Program-made: the position numbers and the translations under genes | Notes under the pieces: generated by a model | Told to the model about the DNA's origin: nothing | Databases searched by the model: none | What the model saw: the letters and a program-made list of their open reading frames with translations, nothing else | Assembly: GCA_963744665.1 (NCBI GenBank) | Contig: CAVUUM010000026.1 | Coordinates: forward strand, 97,270 to 161,269 | Direction: 5' to 3' | DNA length: 64,000 nucleotides | From: an uncultured delta proteobacterium | GTDB taxonomy: Bacteria > Desulfobacterota > Desulfobacteria > Desulfobacterales > B30-G6 | Part shown: one piece after another, positions 15,115-52,466 of the stretch | Position numbering within the stretch: position 1 is the stretch's first letter | Layout: each line of letters starts with the position of its first letter

Positions 15115-16500
15115 CTATATGAGTCCTTTGCTCTCTAATCGCTTGACACAATTGATGTCAATATCCAGGATTTTGGCAATACGAATTTTAGCCTCAATTC
15201 CCTTCACACATCCAGGTAGTGGGGAAAGACTGCCCATCTCCAAATCTTCACGGATTTCCGTCATTACCACCGGATCGGAAAGATCATGAACTGAAACACG
15301 CAACTTGTCTGCCACATAGGCCTTGGCGTCGTTTATCTTCATACCACGGGTCATCTGCATTCGTGCCACCAGATCTCCGGCAGCCCGCATTCCACCCATG
15401 CCCGAGGCAATAGCGTGGGAAATAGCCATGCCTAACGGATCACCTACGCCAACCTACAACCCGTCGAGCCGGCAGATTTCCACCATGGCCGCAGAGGCGC
15501 GGGATGTAATGTCCACCGGCGGGTGATTGGTCATGGGAACACCGCCGACGCCCATACCCATGTTCGCATGGATCGGAATGTTGGCCACGTCACAGCAGGC
15601 TTTGGTAAAAGTAATGGCCCGAGCCAGATTCCAGGGGCAGGAATGATTGGTTTTGACATTGACCACCGGTCCAAAAATTGTCACGCCGGCTTTTTCCGCC
15701 ATCCTGACTTGATCATGGGCATACATACCGGCCAAGCGTTCGCCCTGGTACCTCAAATCCCCGTGCATTCCTAGAACAAATTCCCCTGCCATTCCAAGTT
15801 CAATACAGATACCGGGATACTTTTCATTCAGAATTTCAGAAGCCTTCAAACCGGCAAGGAAATCAGCATCCCCCGCCGCACCTACGGTATCAAGATTGAC
15901 ACCGTCTGCTCCGGATTCAACCATGGCGCCGGCAACAAAGACAATATCTTTGACAGCGGCCTCTACTGAATTCTCATAAGATTTTTGAACTTCGTCAATC
16001 TTTCCCATGGTCAACAGTTCCGAGGGATTTTGAAAAGGACCGTCCGGTTGGGTATACAAACCCAGGTTCGGCATGGCACCGTAGAAGAGTGGCGGGTGCG
16101 TCACCATCAATACTTGCTCCAGAACGGTTTGTTCCATGCTCACAATCGGTTTGACCTGCTTGTAGCTGTAGTCGATATGACCCAGTTCAAGGGTATCCGC
16201 TCCCAATAGCTTTTCATAGACCTGCAATGCTTGAACACGATGGACATCGATGGCAGTGCGCATCATCTTGATGGGTGCACCGTCATAAGAAAGTACGACT
16301 TCATTACCAGGTTCCACACCCACAAAACGATACGGTGTCATAAAAAGATCGAACAGGTATAGCAGCGCTTCTTTTGAAAGAGGGGCAATCCTGCCGTATT
16401 TGGCAGCATTTTCCGCACCTTCAACCAGATCGCTCATGAGTTGTTTTTCAGTCATTTCAACGGGAAACCCATCACCCATTCGTGTCATTATTTTTCCCAT
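15115..16500 (-). CDS. mtbB: Dimethylamine:corrinoid methyltransferase with in-frame UAG (pyrrolysine) at 15456..15454
   Basis: ORFs 15454..16500 and 15115..15429 share one frame and are separated only by TAG plus 8 sense codons. The joined sequence reads ...[45 protein letters not shown]. That matches my memory of the region around the Pyl codon in Methanosarcina MtbB. The N-terminal part ([40 protein letters not shown]) is also MtbB-like. The joined length is 461 codons. Confidence 0.85.
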
Positions 16501-16949: not shown

Positions 16950-18449
16950 CTATTTGGAGACTTTGAGTTCCTTTTCTGCTTCCTCCACAATCGCTCGCAT
17001 GGTGGCCAGAACATCATCGGGCAGCGGGTCAGGCTTGTGGGTTTCTAAAATACGCCGCGCCTCTTCCGAAGCCCTTGCATATATATCTGTACTGCCGGAG
17101 GCCTCCCATTCTTCCCGCATCCTGCGATCGATGAGTTTAGGCTGGGATTGAGACCGCATGTGTTTGAACGTGGCATCATGACTGAGGAAATTTTTCCCTA
17201 TCCCAATCTCCCGAATGACGTCCACTGCCAGCGTTTCGTCGTTGACGGGGATTCCATGCAGCAAGAATTTGATCATCTTGGCAAATTCGTTGTCCATAAC
17301 CAGTTGGCCGAAATCGATGGTCATGCCCATTTCGATCATACCCAGGCCGTAAATCAGGTTGGCACCTGCCAACGCTGGTAACAGGCCTGTGATGGTTTTC
17401 TCGTGACCGGACTGGGCATCACAGACTTTGCTGTCGCCCTACCCGCCAGCGACCCAGCTGGGAAGCAGATAGTAGATGGACATTTGAGCCACCGCGGCGT
17501 TGATCAAAGCACACTCAGGAGATCCCACGGATGCGGCAGCCAGCCTCAGATCCATGGCCGTCGTGGAACTGCCGTAAATAAATTTCGCTCCTTTACGGGT
17601 ACACTGACTGAGCACAAGTCCTCCAAGGATTTCCGCGTTATGATCCACCAGGGTGCCGGCCAAGGTCACTGGAGACGAGCCACCGGCCATGGCCATGGAT
17701 AAAACATTTACGGCCAAATCTGCCCGAGCGGATTCCATGATAATTTCACAGCTGTCCTTAACAAGCTGCAGCGGACTCACCGGGCAGGTAATAAACGAAA
17801 TAATGGGACGCTCTTTCAGTTTTTCCTTGCCGCCGACAATGGCAGCGGCCATTTCAACAATTTTTTTGGTCAAATATCCATTGCCGGACCCCATGAACCC
17901 ATGTTTGGTCGTGTTGGGCAGCCAGGCTTCGGCGTTATGAAGCTGCACCGTCTGCGTCGGCACATCACTGGCGCCAACGGCCCGTTCATAAACATCGATT
18001 TCGCTCAGATAGTCGGCAATCAGAGCCGAGGCAGCCACATCCGCCTTGGTCGTCTCCCGATGCTCCCCCGTGTATGGGTCGTTAATAAAAACGCCTTCCC
18101 CAAAATTAGTGAAGCCTACGCGGTTTTTTTCCATAATAAAGTCGTTTTTTGAATCACGCCCGTACAACACAATTTTTGGCGGTGCTGAACGGATGGCGTC
18201 CTCAACCATGTGAGGGGGGAACTTGGCTATACGGTTCTTTTTGTCGATGACAGCGCCTCCGCCATCGAGGACAGCCAGCGCCTCTTCATCCTCGAAAAAA
18301 AGACCGGTCTTTTCCAGAACCTCAAGTGTGGCCAGATGAATTTCATCCATTTCCTCATCGGTAAAGACCTTGAATTCTAGGCCACCATCCCTGCTTTTTC
18401 CTGCTCGCATATTGCGTCTCAAGAAATCACCTCCTTTTGGTTTTACCAA
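16950..18449 (-). CDS. mttB: Trimethylamine:corrinoid methyltransferase with in-frame UAG (pyrrolysine) at 17441..17439
   Basis: ORFs 17439..18449 and 16950..17372 share one frame. I read the codons across the gap as ...[50 protein letters not shown] with no other stop. The joined length is 499 codons, with the UAG at codon 337. That size and position fit my memory of archaeal MttB. Confidence 0.85.
17385..17426 (-). other. 10-bp stem-loop in the mttB mRNA, starting 12 nt 3' of the in-frame UAG
   Basis: In the sense RNA, GUCUGUGAUG (17426..17417) pairs with CAUCACAGGC (17394..17385). That gives 9 Watson-Crick pairs plus one G-U and a 22-nt loop. The G-U position is a C-A mismatch on the opposite strand, so the structure is specific to the sense strand. 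Confidence 0.4.
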
Positions 18450-23382: not shown

Positions 23383-23456
23383 GGGGAGTGGATCGCAATG
23401 GGATCGTGTGGACTCTAAATCCACATAGACGGGTGCAACTCCCGTACTCCCCGCCA
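23383..23456 (+). tRNA. pylT: tRNA-Pyl, anticodon CUA (amber suppressor), CCA encoded
   Basis: Folded by hand. The acceptor stem pairs GGGGAGU with ACUCCCC. The anticodon stem is 6 bp (UGUGGA/UCCACA) with loop CUCUAAA, placing CUA at 23415..23417. The variable loop is 3 nt (UAG). The T arm is ACGGG-UGCAACU-CCCGU, without the canonical T-loop sequence. The discriminator is G, followed by CCA. A long anticodon stem, short variable loop and single base between acceptor and D stem are the known oddities of tRNA-Pyl. Confidence 0.9.
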
Positions 23457-37538: not shown

Positions 37539-38012
37539 ATGACCGTTGCCTATACCAGTTACCTGACAATAAAGAAGCACGCCGGGGCGCATCGAACAGC
37601 CCGTTTGAAAAACTTTGATGAGCCCATAAACTTTGGTATCCACGGCGGCATCAAGGATTTTTATCAGGAAAAGTACGGACGAAAACTTGAAGGACCGGAA
37701 TACCCGGCAACCCTCGACCATGTCGTTGCCGGCGTTGCCGGCTGACTGACGGGAACCCTTGCCGGTGCGCTGGATGCGCGCGGAATATCAGCAACTGAAA
37801 ATCTGGTGGCCCATGTCGAAGGCGATGTAGATGCTGTTGACGGAGTCCTGAGAATTACGAAGATACGAATAAAATATCAATTCGAGGCCCCCAAAGACCT
37901 TCTACAAAAGGCGGAAAGGGCCCTTCAGGTCTATGCGGACCTGTGTCCTGCCTACCAGTCCGTGAAGAATGGCATCGATTGCTCCTGGGATGCAGACATC
38001 GAGACAGTTTAA
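37539..38012 (+). CDS. OsmC/Ohr-family peroxiredoxin-like protein with in-frame UGA (candidate selenocysteine) at 37743..37745
   Basis: ORFs 37539..37745 and 37806..38012 share one frame. I read the gap without a further stop as ...LDHVVAGVAG-U-LTGTLAGALDARGISATENLVAHVEGDVD. The UGA falls where the OsmC family has its conserved Cys (A-x-C). The second family Cys is present (YADLCPAY). A hairpin lies 16 nt downstream, at 37762..37783. Confidence 0.65.
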
Positions 38013-40900: not shown

Positions 40901-42688
40901 CTAAAAGGCCCTTTCCGGTATATCAACAACCTCCCGTCCCTCTCTCAGACAAGTGTCCATTTTAGCAAGGGTTCCGGGCAGTGTTTCATCGACAAAAAAA
41001 CGTGCCTGGAATACCTTGCCACGATAAAAATCATGTTTTCTGCCTTTTGGTCGGGAAGGGTCGTATGCGACCAGGGCCATGTCCAGCAACCGCCAGGCCA
41101 TGCCGATCTCGCCAAACACCATCAACATGGGATAAGACCTGGAAGCCCACTGAAGAGGGTCCTTCTTTTTCATGTCTGCCAATTTACCGGTGGTCTGTTT
41201 GAGCTGCTGCATCGCCTTTGCCAGTGCTTTGACCTGTTGCCCAAGACCGGGGTGATTCTCATGCGTCCGACAAAAAGATGTAATTTCCGTTTGAAAAGCG
41301 CCATAGCAAGCCCCTCCCCGAATGGTCATCTTACGACCCAAAAGATCCATGGCCTGGATGCCATTGGTGCCCTCGTAAAGAGACAGAATCTTGACATCCC
41401 GCAAGTATTGCTCCAGGGGGTAATCTTTACAGTATCCATATCCCCCCAGGCACTGAATGGCTGTCTCGCAAACCCTGAATCCCCATTCAGAGCAACAGGC
41501 CTTGATGATGGGTGTCATGAAATCCACAAGATTGGCATAGTGATCCTTCTCAGGACCCTGGGGGAGTTCCAAAGCAAAATCCTGCCAGAAAGCACAACTG
41601 TATATCATGGAACGCATGCCGTCCACGGTTCCCTTCATCCAAAGGAGCATGCGGCGAACATCAGGATGATCGATGATGGCGACATCACCTGTCTTAGTGC
41701 CCAGGATATCCCGGCCCTGTCTGCGCTGTGCTGTATATGCCAGTGCATTGAGATAGGCGGTACCGGCAATACCCATGCCACTGACACCCGTGTTGATCCT
41801 GGCCGAATTCATCATCTGGAACATGTGAGAGAGTCCTTTGTTCTCCCTGCCACACAGATAGCCGATGCATCCATCCCTGGCCCCGAAATTCAACACACAA
41901 GTAGGAGATGCATGCAAGCCCAGCTTTTCCTCCACACCGGTGCAAACGACATCATTGGGTCGGCCAAGACGGCCACCCTTCCCTACCCGTATCTTTGGCA
42001 CGACAAACAGCGAAATGCCTTCCACGCCTGGGGGAGCACCCTGAATTCGTGCCAAGGCAAGATGGATAATGTTTTCGGTCAGGTCATGATCGCCCCAGGA
42101 GATAAACACCTTTGTGCCCTTGATGCGGTATGCATCTCCGTCAGGTACAGCGGTTGTTTGAATCGCCGACAGATTCGATCCAGCCTCGGACTCGGTCAAA
42201 CACATGGTGCCGGCCCAGGCGCCCTTGAACATTTTCGGAACATACAAGCGCTTTAACGCATTGCTGCCGAAACTTTCGATCAAATGGGCAGCACCATGGG
42301 TGAGACTGGGTGCCATATTAAATGACTGGCAGGCACCATACATGAGGTCATTGATGATAATGCGCATCATATGCGGGAAACCCTGTCCGCCGTATTCCGT
42401 ATTCCTGGCCGCCGCGATCCACCCATCCTCACCATATTGTCTGAAGGCTTTTTGAAATTCTCTGGGGCAGGTAACGGAACCACCGCCAAAACCGACCCCC
42501 CTGGCTTCACCGATCTCCTGGAGGGGCGCCACAACACCCCTGGCAAAACTGATGGCTTCGGTTACCAGCATGTCAAAAGTAGGCTCGTTCAGATCTTTGT
42601 AACGGTCCAGCCGACACAGGGAACCGTATGACAATTGCTCTTTGAGGATGAAAAAAAGGTCTTTGGAATTAACTTTAAAATGATCCAT
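40901..42688 (-). CDS. Long-form acyl-CoA dehydrogenase
   Basis: ORF 40901..42772. The likely start is MDHFKVNSKDLFFILKEQL at 42688. It has TESEAGSNL and LGGYGY motifs. It ends in TAG. Confidence 0.8.
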   Translation of the reverse strand: MDHFKVNSKDLFFILKEQLSYGSLCRLDRYKDLNEPTFDMLVTEAISFARGVVAPLQEIGEARGVGFGGGSVTCPREFQKAFRQYGEDGWIAAARNTEYGGQGFPHMMRIIINDLMYGACQSFNMAPSLTHGAAHLIESFGSNALKRLYVPKMFKGAWAGTMCLTESEAGSNLSAIQTTAVPDGDAYRIKGTKVFISWGDHDLTENIIHLALARIQGAPPGVEGISLFVVPKIRVGKGGRLGRPNDVVCTGVEEKLGLHASPTCVLNFGARDGCIGYLCGRENKGLSHMFQMMNSARINTGVSGMGIAGTAYLNALAYTAQRRQGRDILGTKTGDVAIIDHPDVRRMLLWMKGTVDGMRSMIYSCAFWQDFALELPQGPEKDHYANLVDFMTPIIKACCSEWGFRVCETAIQCLGGYGYCKDYPLEQYLRDVKILSLYEGTNGIQAMDLLGRKMTIRGGACYGAFQTEITSFCRTHENHPGLGQQVKALAKAMQQLKQTTGKLADMKKKDPLQWASRSYPMLMVFGEIGMAWRLLDMALVAYDPSRPKGRKHDFYRGKVFQARFFVDETLPGTLAKMDTCLREGREVVDIPERAF

Positions 42689-43109
42689 TATAAATTCGCT
42701 CCACGAATTTATTCGGCCGGTTGGTGGCCGCTGCAATGTCCGTAATGGGAATTGCGGATGTGTTGCTTGCAAACAGGGTTCCCGGGCTGCAGATCCCGTC
42801 CAACAGTCGGAAAATTTCCTGCTTCAATTCACATTGTTCAAAAACAGCCTCTATCACCAGGTCGACATCTTTGCCCGTTGGAAGGTCTTGAATCGTCTTT
42901 ATACGACCGATAATGGTTGAGCTGGTTTCACCTAGCGTTCCTTTCTCAATCAATTGTCCCACGGACCATTCAATGTTTTTGACCGCCTTTTTCAAGGCCT
43001 CATCGGAAACCTCATATAACAGAACATCACGTCCTGCCTGTGCACTCACCTGCGCGATGCCACTCCCCATGAGACCCGATCCCACAACCATGATTTTCTG
43101 GATATCCAT
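42675..43109 (-). pseudogene. 3-hydroxyacyl-CoA dehydrogenase, NAD-binding N-terminal half only (truncated)
   Basis: MDIQKIMVVGSGLMGSGIAQV...ASNTSAIPITDIAAATNRPNKF reads as expected, then ends after ERIYNGSF. The whole C-terminal dimerisation domain is missing. The stop overlaps the start of the acyl-CoA dehydrogenase. AAGGAG precedes the ATG at 43109. Confidence 0.55.
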
Positions 43110-43409
43110 GATTGTCTCTCCTTTCATTCATTGGTTTTGTCCTGCCAACAGAATCATAGTTTACACATCTTTTCAAGAAGTTGCGGTTTTTAGTAGTTCA
43201 AAAAAACTTTTTATGCTAATAAATTTGTTGTACAAATTTATGAATCGCGACGTTTCCGCTTCAAGCGTTGTTCTAATCTATCTTGCAAAGTAATTGGTGC
43301 GCAGGGCTTCAGCCCTGCCATAACGGGTTTCGGGCAGCGCTGAAACGCTGCGCTACAACCTTGATACAACATTGTTGAGAAGCTAATATATCAACGGGGA
43401 GATTCTGTC

Positions 43410-45686: not shown

Positions 45687-46148
45687 ATGCAATACAGACG
45701 TTTAGGCCGCTCGGGGCTGATGGTTTCAGAATTGACATTGGGCACGATGAATCTTGGTGGGCCCACAGACGAACCCACCTCATTGCTGATGATAGACAAG
45801 GCCCTTGACCACGGCATCAATTTACTGGATTGCGCCAACGTCTATGCAGACCGTATTACAAACGCAGGCATAAAAATAGCTCAAAAGGTCAGCAAGCGGG
45901 CAAAAGAAAATGAATGGTCACCGGCATCACTATCCGTGTCATGGATTTTGCACAAGCCTGCCATCACCTCAGTCATTATCGGCCCTCGCACACCAGAGCA
46001 CCTGGATGATCTTGTCTCGGCCCAGAATATCCACCTGTTACCTGAAGACCTGGCCTGGTTCGACACCCTGGTTCCCCCCGGAACAAATGTTTCCGACCAT
46101 TTCAACACGGCCGGATGGCGACGGCCTATCCAGACTCATATCCATTGA
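45687..46148 (+). pseudogene. Aldo/keto reductase with a large internal deletion
   Basis: The N-terminus (MQYRRLGRSGLMVSELTLGTMNLGG...LDCANVYA) joins directly to the C-terminal end of the fold (SLSVSWILHKPAITSVIIGPRTPEHLDD). The total is 153 aa, against roughly 300+ aa for this family. Confidence 0.6.
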
Positions 46149-46738
46149 CCCACAAACTGTTTCAGCGCTTCATACGGCTGGGCTCCCACCAGACGGCCCG
46201 CCCCATACAAGAAAGTGGGAACGGCCGTAATACCCAGCTGATGTGCACGCTGCCAGTCGGCATCCACAGCTTCTTTATAGGTTCTTTTTTCGATACTTTT
46301 TCTGGCCTCATCCGGGTCCAGGGAGACGGAACTCACGATATCGAGCAGGTTTTTCATCCTGGCAATGTTTTTGCCATCTGCAAAATAGGCCCGAAAAGCA
46401 GCCTGGTGGAAAGCATCTCCCTGGCCCTGATCTTCGGCCCACTTGGCCAGTTCCTGGGCCAAACGACTGTTATAGGTTTTCGTGCGGGCGCCAAAAGGGA
46501 GACCTTCAGCATCGGCAACTGTCTTCATATGCGACAGCGCCTCTGGGATGTTATACGAACGACCGGCAAAAAGTTCCTCCAGGGTTCGCCCCTCTTCCGG
46601 TGTTTCCGGGTGCAATGGAAATGCCAGCCAGCGAATGTTAATATCCATTTCTTTTTTCAGTTTTTCAATACGACCTGTAATGAAGTAACACCACGGTCAG
46701 ATGGTATCCGAGAAGATTTCGAGTGTTGGTTCATTCAT
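46136..46738 (-). CDS. DsbA/FrnE-like thiol:disulfide oxidoreductase with in-frame UGA (candidate selenocysteine) at 46699..46697
   Basis: The listed ORF 46136..46648 extends in frame upstream to the ATG at 46738: MNEPTLEIFSDTI-U-PWCYFITGRIEKLKKEMDINIRW. The UGA replaces the first Cys of the family's CPWC(Y) redox motif. Confidence 0.65.
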
Positions 46739-46896
46739 AATTTCATTCCTTAAATAACATGCATATATGATTTTATCAAACGCGACATTGCCGCTTCAGA
46801 TCGCTCCCGTCTTGTGCTATATACCTATATCGAATTGAAAAGCATCCCATTCACTCTCCAATTCCATGTAGCGCAGCATAAACAATAGAGGAATAT

Positions 46897-47445
46897 ATGA
46901 TCGATACGAGAGCTTGTCAAAAAATTCACACACGCAGCATTGATGTGTCCATCTTAACCTATGCCGAGGATACCATTGTCGTCGAAGGGCATCTGAAAGA
47001 CGATCGATTAATCGACTCCTTTCGTTCCGGCGGTGATGTAATACCACCCGGTGTTGTCCACAACATGATCATCCGTATGAAAGTCCGGGGACCGGAACTC
47101 ATTATTGAAGACATCGACGTGGAAATGCCCACAGTTCCCAACGATGACTGCCTTGAAACACGCCGATCCCTCGAACGCATCAAAGGCATGTCAATTGTGT
47201 CCGGCTTTACCGCAAAAGCCCGAAGCCTTGTGGGAGGTGCCAAAGGCTGCGCCCATCTGATGGCGCTCCTGATGGCCATGGCGCCAGCGGCTGTGCAAGG
47301 TGCCTGGACCGCAGCAACCCGTTTGCCAAACGATTCCCAGGCACTCAAAACCTATTCCATGAAAAGATTGAAAAACACTTGCTATGTCTGGCGCTCTAAC
47401 GGACCGGCATTTGCGAAATACAAGCAGTCATTGGAGATTGATTGA
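46897..47445 (+). CDS. Conserved hypothetical protein (DUF2889-like)
   Basis: 182-aa ORF. GAKGCAHLMALLMAM resembles that family. This is a low-certainty family call. Confidence 0.5.
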   Translation: MIDTRACQKIHTRSIDVSILTYAEDTIVVEGHLKDDRLIDSFRSGGDVIPPGVVHNMIIRMKVRGPELIIEDIDVEMPTVPNDDCLETRRSLERIKGMSIVSGFTAKARSLVGGAKGCAHLMALLMAMAPAAVQGAWTAATRLPNDSQALKTYSMKRLKNTCYVWRSNGPAFAKYKQSLEID

Positions 47446-52222: not shown

Positions 52223-52466
52223 ATAGGGATAACATCCTTCTACGAATAAAATCGTGGGAACAATTTTACGAAACGCGACCTTGTCGCTTCTGAGTTGAAT
52301 AGAAGTGGAAACCTAAATCAAATCTACCAAAACATCAACTGTGAACTCGATTTTGGAGATGTCCCAAGCTCTTTTGATCCAATGCTGTCTATCTTTTCCT
52401 TGCATCCTGGCGGAATCGTACTTAAAATAAAACCGTTCCACGAATAAAATCATAGGATGATGTGGG

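What the first reader, a model, noticed from the sequence alone, without database searches (positions are those of the whole stretch)
46136..46738. DsbA/FrnE-like oxidoreductase with a U-P-W-C redox motif: second candidate selenoprotein
The listed 170-aa ORF lacks the family's N-terminal CxxC motif. Extending it in frame upstream gives MNEPTLEIFSDTI-UGA-PWCYFITGRIEKL.... The UGA (46699..46697) sits exactly at the first Cys of the CPWC motif, and an ATG lies at 46738. I could not fold a convincing SECIS by eye. Only a weak GACC/GGUC stem overlaps the UGA, so the recoding call rests on the motif position.
Basis: partly seen in the sequence, partly recalled or inferred. Interest (0 to 1): 0.6.

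Follow-up and report, generated by a model that had tools for sequence, protein, structure and literature searches.

The report
Selenocysteine FrnE/DsbA-like oxidoreductase gene
This is a real gene for a small cytoplasmic redox enzyme whose reactive cysteine is replaced by selenocysteine (a recoded UGA stop codon), but the selenoprotein family has been known since 2005, so it is a correct annotation fix and not a discovery.

Summary
On the minus strand an ATG (46738) with a Shine-Dalgarno opens a 200-codon frame. Its only interruption is TGA 46699..46697, exactly at the first Cys of the CPWC motif of a DsbA/FrnE-like thioredoxin-fold protein (Pfam DSBA, E=2e-33).

The selenoprotein reading is strongly supported:
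- The same TGA, with the conserved upstream peptide LEIFSD-x-I, is present in all 112 orthologous loci examined, mostly Thermodesulfobacteriota MAGs.
- Cys homologs carry CPWC at that site.
- The genome has selA, selB, selD and tRNA-Sec.

It is the hairpin 46684..46664 (loop AGGUC), which starts 12 nt after the UGA. In 85 distinct sequences six of its base pairs are never broken, and three show compensatory double changes. Eight more distant Cys-form genes do not keep the hairpin.

The predicted fold (pLDDT 92) matches Deinococcus FrnE (TM 0.91).

The family ('DsbA-like protein', COG2761, UxxC) was described by Zhang, Fomenko and Gladyshev in 2005 and is listed in a 2026 review. This gene is therefore a new member of a known kind, and public gene calls for its relatives are mostly wrong (truncated, or UGA read as W). 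Interest is low. No reads or proteomics could be checked.

The parts
46136..46738 (-). Full-length coding sequence of the Sec-containing FrnE/DsbA-like oxidoreductase (200 aa plus stop; the stop is also TGA)
   Evidence: Pfam DSBA E=2e-33 over residues 5-195. AF2 model pLDDT 92, best PDB fold match drFrnE with TMq 0.91. Orthologs end at the same position, with TAA, TAG or TGA.
46697..46699 (-). UGA selenocysteine codon (residue 14, first position of the U-P-W-C redox motif)
   Evidence: Aligned to Cys22 of the CPWC motif of D. radiodurans FrnE and to Cys in the Cys-form homologs. TGA stands at this codon in 112 of 112 orthologous loci.
46688..46690 (-). TGT codon of Cys17, the resolving cysteine of the UxxC motif and the only Cys in the protein
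   Evidence: Read directly from the sequence. C17 is invariant in alignment A2.
46664..46684 (-). SECIS hairpin: UUCA-U-UAC / AGGUC / GUA-U-UGAA, starting 12 nt after the UGA
   Evidence: Folds alone at -4.0 kcal/mol. In 85 distinct orthologous sequences six pairs are paired 85/85, with compensatory doubles at three pairs: AU>GC x4; UA>CG x13 and >AU x1; AU>GC x1. The count of structure pairs: 0 of 500 shuffles reach the observed covariation score, and slid controls show no double changes. Eight more distant Cys-form genes do not keep the hairpin.
46672..46676 (-). Apical loop of the SECIS (AGGUC here; CGGGC in most orthologs), formed by the Thr-Gly-Arg codons
   Evidence: The second loop base, G, is invariant in 85 distinct sequences. 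The loop begins 23 nt after the U of the UGA.
46747..46751 (-). Shine-Dalgarno-like AAGGA, 8 nt before the ATG
   Evidence: Read directly from the sequence.
46892..46920 (-). Sigma-70-like promoter match (TTGACA-17-TATATT, 11 of 12)
   Evidence: Consensus scan only. Two such matches were found in this 1.1-kb region against 1.2 expected from shuffles, so it is not evidence of function.
46092..46115 (-). Terminator-like stem-loop with a T-rich tail, about 20 nt after the stop codon
   Evidence: Consensus scan only.
46217..46219 (-). Codon of Pro174 in the V-P-T loop, taken to be the cis-proline loop that faces the active site in thioredoxin-fold oxidoreductases
   Evidence: V173, P174 and T175 are invariant in A2. 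The role as cis-Pro is inferred from knowledge of the fold.
46778..46797 (+). Operator-like dyad motif AAACGCGACATTGCCGCTTC, 40-60 nt upstream of the ATG; two further copies in the window
   Evidence: three copies in the window, but the pattern was derived from those same copies. A copy lies upstream of the ortholog in one genome of the same genus. Function not tested.

Best explanation
The gene at 46738..46136 (minus strand) encodes a 200-residue cytoplasmic FrnE-type (DsbA-family) thiol-disulfide oxidoreductase.

Active site. The attacking residue of the CxxC motif is selenocysteine (U14-P-W-C17).

Recoding. The UGA at 46699..46697 is read as Sec. The SECIS hairpin at 46684..46664 begins 12 nt downstream and has a G-containing apical loop. 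It is inferred to recruit SelB-GTP-Sec-tRNA(Sec) to the ribosome paused at the UGA. The genome supplies selA, selB, selD (itself UGA-containing) and tRNA-Sec. The gene's terminal UGA has no such hairpin and terminates.

Catalysis (inferred). Sec14 sits at the N-cap of helix 15-31. It attacks substrate disulfides, or other oxidised thiols, to form a mixed selenenylsulfide. Cys17 resolves this to an internal Se-S bond, which a cellular reductant then reduces. The protein has no C-terminal CxxxxC tail of the kind D. radiodurans FrnE uses for regeneration, so the re-reduction partner is unknown.

Shown here: the frame, the domain and fold, conservation of the UGA, covariation of the hairpin, and presence of the Sec machinery.
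Inferred: actual Sec insertion, the cytoplasmic location (no N-terminal extension before strand 1), and the reductase or isomerase chemistry.
For: - Frame and motif.
- Domain: Pfam DSBA, E=2e-33.
- Solved relatives: the best sequence match is FrnE 5cnw, E=6e-27, with CPWC aligned to UPWC.
- Fold: AF2 model pLDDT 92; Foldseek finds drFrnE at TMq 0.91, rmsd 1.9 A.
- Close relatives: more than 30 genomes of the same genus, family or order carry the ortholog with exactly one in-frame TGA, and the match extends upstream of it.
- All 112 loci read have ...FSD-x-x-U-PWC....
- Phylum sample: of 401 genomes, 82 have a hit and 72 of those carry an in-frame TGA.
- SECIS covariation.
- Cys-form control.
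- Sec machinery: selB 372.7 bits, tRNA-Sec 75.4 bits, selA 605 bits, selD 371.4 bits, all above the curated cut-offs.
- Literature: DsbA-like UxxC selenoproteins (COG2761) are described in PMC1088965, PMC1794560, PMC1976440 and PMC13188914.
Against: - There is no direct evidence of Sec incorporation.
- The SECIS hairpin is small and only marginally stable on its own (-4.0 kcal/mol, z=-1.64).
- In a 66-nt piece the MFE fold prefers the competing stem that includes the UGA.
- No Rfam family matches the hairpin.
- The hairpin lies inside a strongly conserved peptide (YFITGRIE), so part of its conservation is protein-driven. One Cys-form gene (L134) keeps 6 of the 7 core stem pairs scored (7 of 8 with the outer pair).
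- No NCBIfam model specific to this selenoprotein exists to confirm membership.
Confidence: 0.95

Rival explanations
1. The gene is a 5'-truncated or decaying DsbA-like gene. The TGA is a genuine stop, and any product starts at Met31 (46648) without a redox motif.
For: Gene callers produce exactly this 170-aa product: P0002 and 45 other truncated clusters among the 120 best database hits. The window contains several eroded genes, including the AKR remnant next door (earlier notes).
Against: - The 13 codons upstream of the TGA are conserved at protein level (LEIFSD-x-I) with synonymous variation in 112 loci.
- The TGA is at the same codon in every one of those loci.
- Pfam DSBA needs those residues (profile positions 1 onwards).
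- A truncated product would lack strand 1 and the active site.
- A pseudogene would not keep one identical lesion across orders.
Confidence: 0.01
2. The UGA is read through, but not as selenocysteine. It could be read as Trp or Cys by near-cognate or suppressor decoding, or under a reassigned genetic code.
For: Forty database clusters of relatives were called with W at this position. One checked case translates only with TGA=W.
Against: - Those W calls sit on short metagenome contigs and reflect the gene caller's choice of code.
- The same gene here ends with TGA, and the orthologs end with a mix of TAA, TAG and TGA.
- A complete Sec system is present.
- The position is the catalytic Cys, where Trp would kill the enzyme.
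- A covarying SECIS-type hairpin follows at the canonical distance.
Confidence: 0.03
3. The TGA is a sequencing or assembly error for TGC or TGT in this MAG.
For: The genome is a draft of 28 contigs with 6.3% contamination.
Against: Independent assemblies of more than 100 species carry TGA at the same codon.
Confidence: 0.005

Closest known systems
DsbA-like selenoprotein family ('DsbA-like protein', COG2761; 'DsbA-like protein form 1', PF01323, UxxC). Zhang, Fomenko and Gladyshev 2005 (PMC1088965); reported in Deltaproteobacteria and Desulfotomaculum in 2006 (PMC1794560); two copies in the Olavius delta1 symbiont (PMC1976440); listed in the 2026 review PMC13188914
   Same: - Same Pfam domain.
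- Same UxxC motif, with Sec at the first position.
- Bacterial SECIS immediately downstream.
- Found in Sec-rich anaerobic deltaproteobacterial lineages. Like the Olavius delta1 symbiont, this genome also uses pyrrolysine.
   Different: Nothing of substance. This is a further member, from an uncultured Desulfobacterales-like MAG.
Deinococcus radiodurans FrnE (DR_0659; PDB 5cnw, 5co3), a cytoplasmic disulfide oxidoreductase/isomerase (reviewed in PMC8945050)
   Same: - Best sequence match (E=6e-27) and best fold match (TMq 0.91, 34% identity) among solved structures.
- The CP(W/F)C-type motif is at the same place.
- No signal peptide.
   Different: - Sec replaces Cys22.
- The protein is 200 aa and lacks the C-terminal tail with the CxxxxC motif that regenerates the drFrnE active site, so its reductant must differ.
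Periplasmic DsbA (E. coli type)
   Same: Thioredoxin fold with an inserted helical domain, a CxxC-type motif at the N-terminus of helix 1, and a cis-Pro loop (V-P).
   Different: - No signal peptide; strand 1 starts at residue 5.
- The motif is UPWC, not CPHC.
- Only distant fold matches (TMq 0.55-0.67).
- It is expected to act as a reductant or isomerase in the cytoplasm, not as an oxidant in the periplasm.
E. coli fdhF-type bacterial SECIS (my own knowledge, not fetched)
   Same: A small hairpin begins about 11-12 nt after the UGA. Its apical loop carries GG/GU (here AGGUC), and the upper stem has a non-Watson-Crick position (here a U-U mismatch).
   Different: The sequence is unrelated. The stem is shorter (7-8 pairs). 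No Rfam model matches it.

Membership tests
DsbA-like selenoprotein, form 1 (UxxC) | DSBA-like thioredoxin domain (PF01323 / COG2761 FrnE type) | tested here: met
   PF01323 E=2e-33, 116 bits against a cut-off of 25.6. The best PDB sequence and fold match is FrnE. COG2761 itself was not scanned.
DsbA-like selenoprotein, form 1 (UxxC) | In-frame UGA aligned with the first Cys of the CxxC motif of Cys homologs | tested here: met
   U14 aligns to the first Cys of CPWC in FrnE and in 34 Cys-form database clusters. TGA is at this codon in 112 of 112 loci.
DsbA-like selenoprotein, form 1 (UxxC) | Conservation of coding sequence on both sides of the UGA | tested here: met
   LEIFSD-x-I upstream and PWCYFITGR downstream are conserved, with synonymous variation.
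DsbA-like selenoprotein, form 1 (UxxC) | Bacterial SECIS hairpin shortly downstream of the UGA, with G in the apical loop | tested here: met
   Hairpin at 46684..46664. Compensatory changes at three pairs and no broken cell in six pairs over 85 distinct sequences. Loop G invariant.
DsbA-like selenoprotein, form 1 (UxxC) | Host genome has the Sec-decoding trait (selA, selB, selD, tRNA-Sec) | tested here: met
   All four score above the curated cut-offs.
DsbA-like selenoprotein, form 1 (UxxC) | Selenium actually incorporated at the UGA | not testable with these tools
   Needs 75Se labelling or mass spectrometry.
FrnE subfamily of DsbA (cd03024), cytoplasmic | CP(W/F)C-type active site in a DsbA-like fold | tested here: met
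   UPWC motif. Fold TMq 0.91 to drFrnE.
FrnE subfamily of DsbA (cd03024), cytoplasmic | No signal peptide (cytoplasmic) | tested here: inconclusive
   Only four residues precede strand 1, which leaves no room for a signal peptide. No dedicated predictor was run.
FrnE subfamily of DsbA (cd03024), cytoplasmic | C-terminal CxxxxC regeneration motif (present in many members, not all) | tested here: not met
   The protein ends at residue 200 and Cys17 is its only Cys. According to PMC8945050, S. roseofulvus FrnE and D. maricopensis FrnE also lack the motif, so it is not strictly defining.
Periplasmic DsbA/DsbB oxidative folding system | Signal peptide and periplasmic location | tested here: not met
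   There is no N-terminal extension. Periplasmic DsbA structures give only distant fold matches.

The most novel reading that the evidence does not exclude
In this FrnE-like sub-branch selenocysteine, not cysteine, may be the normal and possibly ancestral state across Thermodesulfobacteriota.

- In an even sample of 401 genomes of the phylum, 72 of 82 hits carry an in-frame TGA.
- In a quick tree the Cys forms are nested among Sec forms, and at least three Sec/Cys switches are needed.
- One Cys (TGT) gene, L132, still carries the identical 'fossil' SECIS.

This would make the branch a clean natural series for asking what Sec buys a CxxC oxidoreductase.

A second, weaker reading is that the stem over the UGA and the SECIS form a switch. 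That stem shows no covariation.
Probability: 0.4. Interest if true: 0.3.

Novelty: new member of a known kind. Interest (0 to 1): 0.12.

Why it matters
The practical value is annotation. Among the 120 closest database clusters, 46 are truncated at an internal start and 40 read the UGA as Trp, so public gene calls mostly lose or garble the active site of this protein. Correcting this gene adds one selenoprotein to the count for a bacterium that uses both the 21st and the 22nd amino acids. The window also carries a pyl cluster and a candidate Sec-OsmC gene.

The well-supported 21-nt SECIS, with its covariation pattern, could seed a covariance model for finding this family automatically.

No open biological question is moved. 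The family, its motif and its occurrence in deltaproteobacteria were already published.

Tried and rejected
Two registers were tested: columns 4-14 with 21-32, and columns 8-14 with 24-30. Neither shows a compensatory change, and the scores equal the shuffles. The stem also contains the UGA, so by inference the decoding ribosome would melt it.\n- **Rfam.** No SECIS family or any other family matched, at gathering threshold or at E<=10 on 46560..46780.\n- **NCBIfam.** There is no model for this selenoprotein. The best hit is the Rcas_1661 (seleno)lipoprotein family at 30.9 bits against a cut-off of 190, so the gene is not a member of it.\n- **Conserved neighbours as a clue to function.** Only close relatives share the DUF2889 and family-III CoA-transferase neighbours (16-18 of 103 loci).

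Full report
**Observation**

On the minus strand, ATG 46738..46736 follows an AAGGA Shine-Dalgarno after an 8-nt spacer. It opens a frame of 200 sense codons that ends at TGA 46138..46136. The only interruption is TGA 46699..46697. The product begins MNEPTLEIFSDTI-U-PWCYFITGRIEKL.

The ORF that a table-11 scan lists (46648..46136, 170 aa) begins after the motif. Pfam DSBA (PF01323) matches residues 5-195 against profile positions 1-189 of 191 at E=2e-33. The residues upstream of the TGA are therefore part of the domain.

**Is the UGA conserved?**

A six-frame search of 61 related genomes found the ortholog in 38. In more than 30 of these, from the same genus, family and order, the match has exactly one in-frame TGA and starts at query residues 1-5, that is, upstream of the TGA.

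I extracted the loci and translated them. All 30 read ...LE(I/V)(F/Y)SD(Y/T)(I/V)-U-PWCY..., with a Met 10-14 codons before the U. A scan of one genome per species (GTDB) returned 80 further loci, and every one has TGA at that codon. They are mostly Desulfobacterales, Syntrophales, Desulfobaccales, Desulfobulbales and Syntrophorhabdales MAGs, plus a few MAGs labelled Alphaproteobacteria or Burkholderiales.

In an even sample of 401 genomes of the phylum, 82 have a hit at E<=1e-30. Of these, 72 carry an in-frame TGA and 10 carry none. For that sample I did not verify the position of the TGA.

The codons around the TGA vary synonymously (ATC/ATT/ATA, GTC/GTT/GTG, CCC/CCG/CCT/CCA), which shows selection on the protein on both sides of the stop.

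**Cys homologs and database state**

Of the 120 best protein clusters:
- 34 are full-length Cys forms with CPWC.
- 46 are truncated at an internal start.
- 40 carry W at the site.

One W form was looked up, and its DNA translates only with TGA=W. These W forms are therefore the same UGA genes called under the wrong code. The best solved relative is D. radiodurans FrnE (5cnw, E=6e-27), with its CPWC aligned on UPWC.

**Sec machinery**

All four components score above the curated cut-offs:
- selB: 372.7 bits, cut-off 242
- tRNA-Sec: 75.4 bits, cut-off 47
- selA: 605 bits
- selD: 371.4 bits, itself with one in-frame TGA

The refutation condition 'no SECIS and no selB' is not met on either count.

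**SECIS**

That stem is part of the MFE fold of a 66-nt piece, which is no better than shuffles. On the alignment of 30 orthologs it shows no compensatory change in either register.

A second hairpin lies at 46684..46664: UUCA-U-UAC / AGGUC / GUA-U-UGAA. It begins 12 nt after the UGA, and its loop begins 23 nt after the U. It is strongly supported:
- On alignment A1, four pairs show changes on both sides, covering 10 cells. Of 500 shuffles, 0 reach the observed covariation score or that number of cells, and 20 reach the count of four pairs. The slid controls show none.
- On all 112 loci (85 distinct sequences) six pairs are paired 85/85.
- Pair 22-36 changes AU to GC four times. Pair 24-34 changes UA to CG thirteen times and to AU once. 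Pair 25-33 changes AU to GC once.
- The internal U-U mismatch becomes G-U, U-G or G-C in 31 sequences.
- The second loop base, G, never changes.

Several of these changes couple a synonymous change in one codon to an amino-acid change in another. For example, Ile ATT to ATC goes with Ile ATT to Val GTT, and Thr ACC to Ala GCC goes with Arg CGT to CGC. That is RNA-level covariation and not protein-level.

As a control, eight Cys-form genes from more distant relatives do not keep the hairpin. They break between one and five of the seven core pairs, and the energy of the fixed structure is -0.9 to +6.7 kcal/mol. All 85 Sec forms give -1.4 to -4.4 kcal/mol.

One Cys gene (L132, TGT; protein P0033, 65% identical to this protein) has the identical hairpin. 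It groups with a Sec form in the tree, which points to a recent Sec/Cys switch.

The position and loop resemble the E. coli fdhF SECIS (my own knowledge). No Rfam model matches. On its own the hairpin is small (-4.0 kcal/mol, z=-1.64). The case for it rests on covariation and position, not on stability.

**Protein and likely function**

The AlphaFold2 model built on 39 homologs has pLDDT 92 and pTM 0.87. Strand 5-10 leads into Sec14 at the N-cap of helix 15-31. A helical insert and the terminal strand-strand-helix element follow.

Foldseek ranks drFrnE structures first (TMq 0.91, rmsd 1.9 A, 34% identity), then SCO1869. Periplasmic DsbAs come far behind.

Three features bear on function:
- Only four residues precede strand 1, so there is no signal peptide.
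- V173-P174-T175, the presumed cis-Pro loop, is invariant.
- Cys17 is the only cysteine.

[quoted passage not shown] It is induced by cadmium and radiation, and it is regenerated through a C-terminal CxxxxC tail. That tail is absent here, as it is in S. roseofulvus FrnE.

I therefore infer a cytoplasmic selenol/thiol oxidoreductase. Sec14 would attack, Cys17 would resolve, and an unknown reductant would recycle the Se-S bond.

**Transcription unit**

A promoter-like site (46920..46892) and a terminator-like hairpin (46115..46092) bracket the gene (consensus matches only). The neighbours give no functional clue. They are a convergent aldo/keto-reductase remnant that overlaps the 3' end by 13 nt, and a divergent DUF2889 gene followed by a CoA-transferase. 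Only close relatives share them.

**Comparison with what is known**

'DsbA-like protein' (COG2761, UxxC, nine sequences) was one of the new selenoprotein families of the Sargasso Sea study (PMC1088965). It was later found in Anaeromyxobacter, Desulfovibrio and Desulfotomaculum (PMC1794560), and as two copies in the Sec- and Pyl-rich Olavius delta1 symbiont (PMC1976440). The 2026 review lists it as 'DsbA-like protein form 1, PF01323, UxxC' (PMC13188914).

Every defining feature that can be tested in silico is met here. Earlier agents of this scan reached the same verdict for orthologs in other genomes. I treat that as agreement, not as evidence.

**Verdict**

This is a real selenoprotein gene (confidence 0.95) and a new member of a known kind. 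Interest is low (0.12).

The most novel reading left open is that Sec is the default and perhaps ancestral state of this sub-branch, with repeated conversion to Cys. The supports are 72 of 82 hits in the phylum sample, a quick tree that needs at least three switches, and one fossil SECIS. That reading rests on a quick tree only.

**Limits**

The careful tree did not finish.

Noticed in passing
window 43243-43262, 46778-46797, 52271-52290 (+): The 20-nt dyad-like motif AAWCGCGACNTTNYCGCTTC occurs three times. Each copy lies upstream of a minus-strand unit: the hbd remnant/acyl-CoA dehydrogenase genes, the Sec-DsbA gene and an MFS transporter. One genome of the same genus (G001, locus L023) has a copy about 90 nt upstream of its Sec-DsbA ortholog. 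It may be a shared operator. The chance estimate is circular, because the pattern was derived from the three copies.
   Followed up: partly
window 45687-46148 (+): A 153-aa aldo/keto-reductase fragment; its best Pfam stretch covers only the C-terminal part of the profile. It is convergent with the Sec-DsbA gene and overlaps its last 13 nt. It is probably a deletion remnant.
   Followed up: partly
window 42675-43127 (-): A 150-aa ORF that holds only the NAD-binding half of a 3-hydroxyacyl-CoA dehydrogenase. It abuts or overlaps the start of the acyl-CoA dehydrogenase gene (40901-42772). It looks truncated.
   Followed up: no
window 15357-15456, 17342-17441 (-), 23383-23456 (+): Rfam PYLIS elements of mtbB and mttB (88 and 78 bits) and a tRNA-Pyl (CUA). 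The organism decodes both UGA as Sec and UAG as Pyl, like the Olavius delta1 symbiont described in PMC1976440.
   Followed up: no
window 37539-38012: An earlier first-reader note describes an OsmC/Ohr-like candidate selenoprotein with TGA at 37743..37745. This is the 'first' candidate implied by the title of the present finding. I did not examine it.
   Followed up: no
G000:C2:36907-37830 (-), locus L141: The genome's selD gene itself contains one in-frame TGA, so it is a Sec-containing selenophosphate synthetase, a well-known case.
   Followed up: no
L132 259-879 (ENA metagenome contig; protein P0033): A Cys-form (TGT) gene whose 21-nt SECIS region is identical to the common Sec-form sequence. 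In the quick tree it is sister to a Sec form (L029). It appears to be a recent Sec-to-Cys (or Cys-to-Sec) switch with a fossil SECIS.
   Followed up: partly
L082, L103, L122, L123 (MAGs labelled Proteobacteria, Alphaproteobacteria, Burkholderiales): Sec-form genes in MAGs labelled outside Thermodesulfobacteriota. In the quick tree they group with the main Cys-form clade. This could be horizontal transfer or mis-binning.
   Followed up: no
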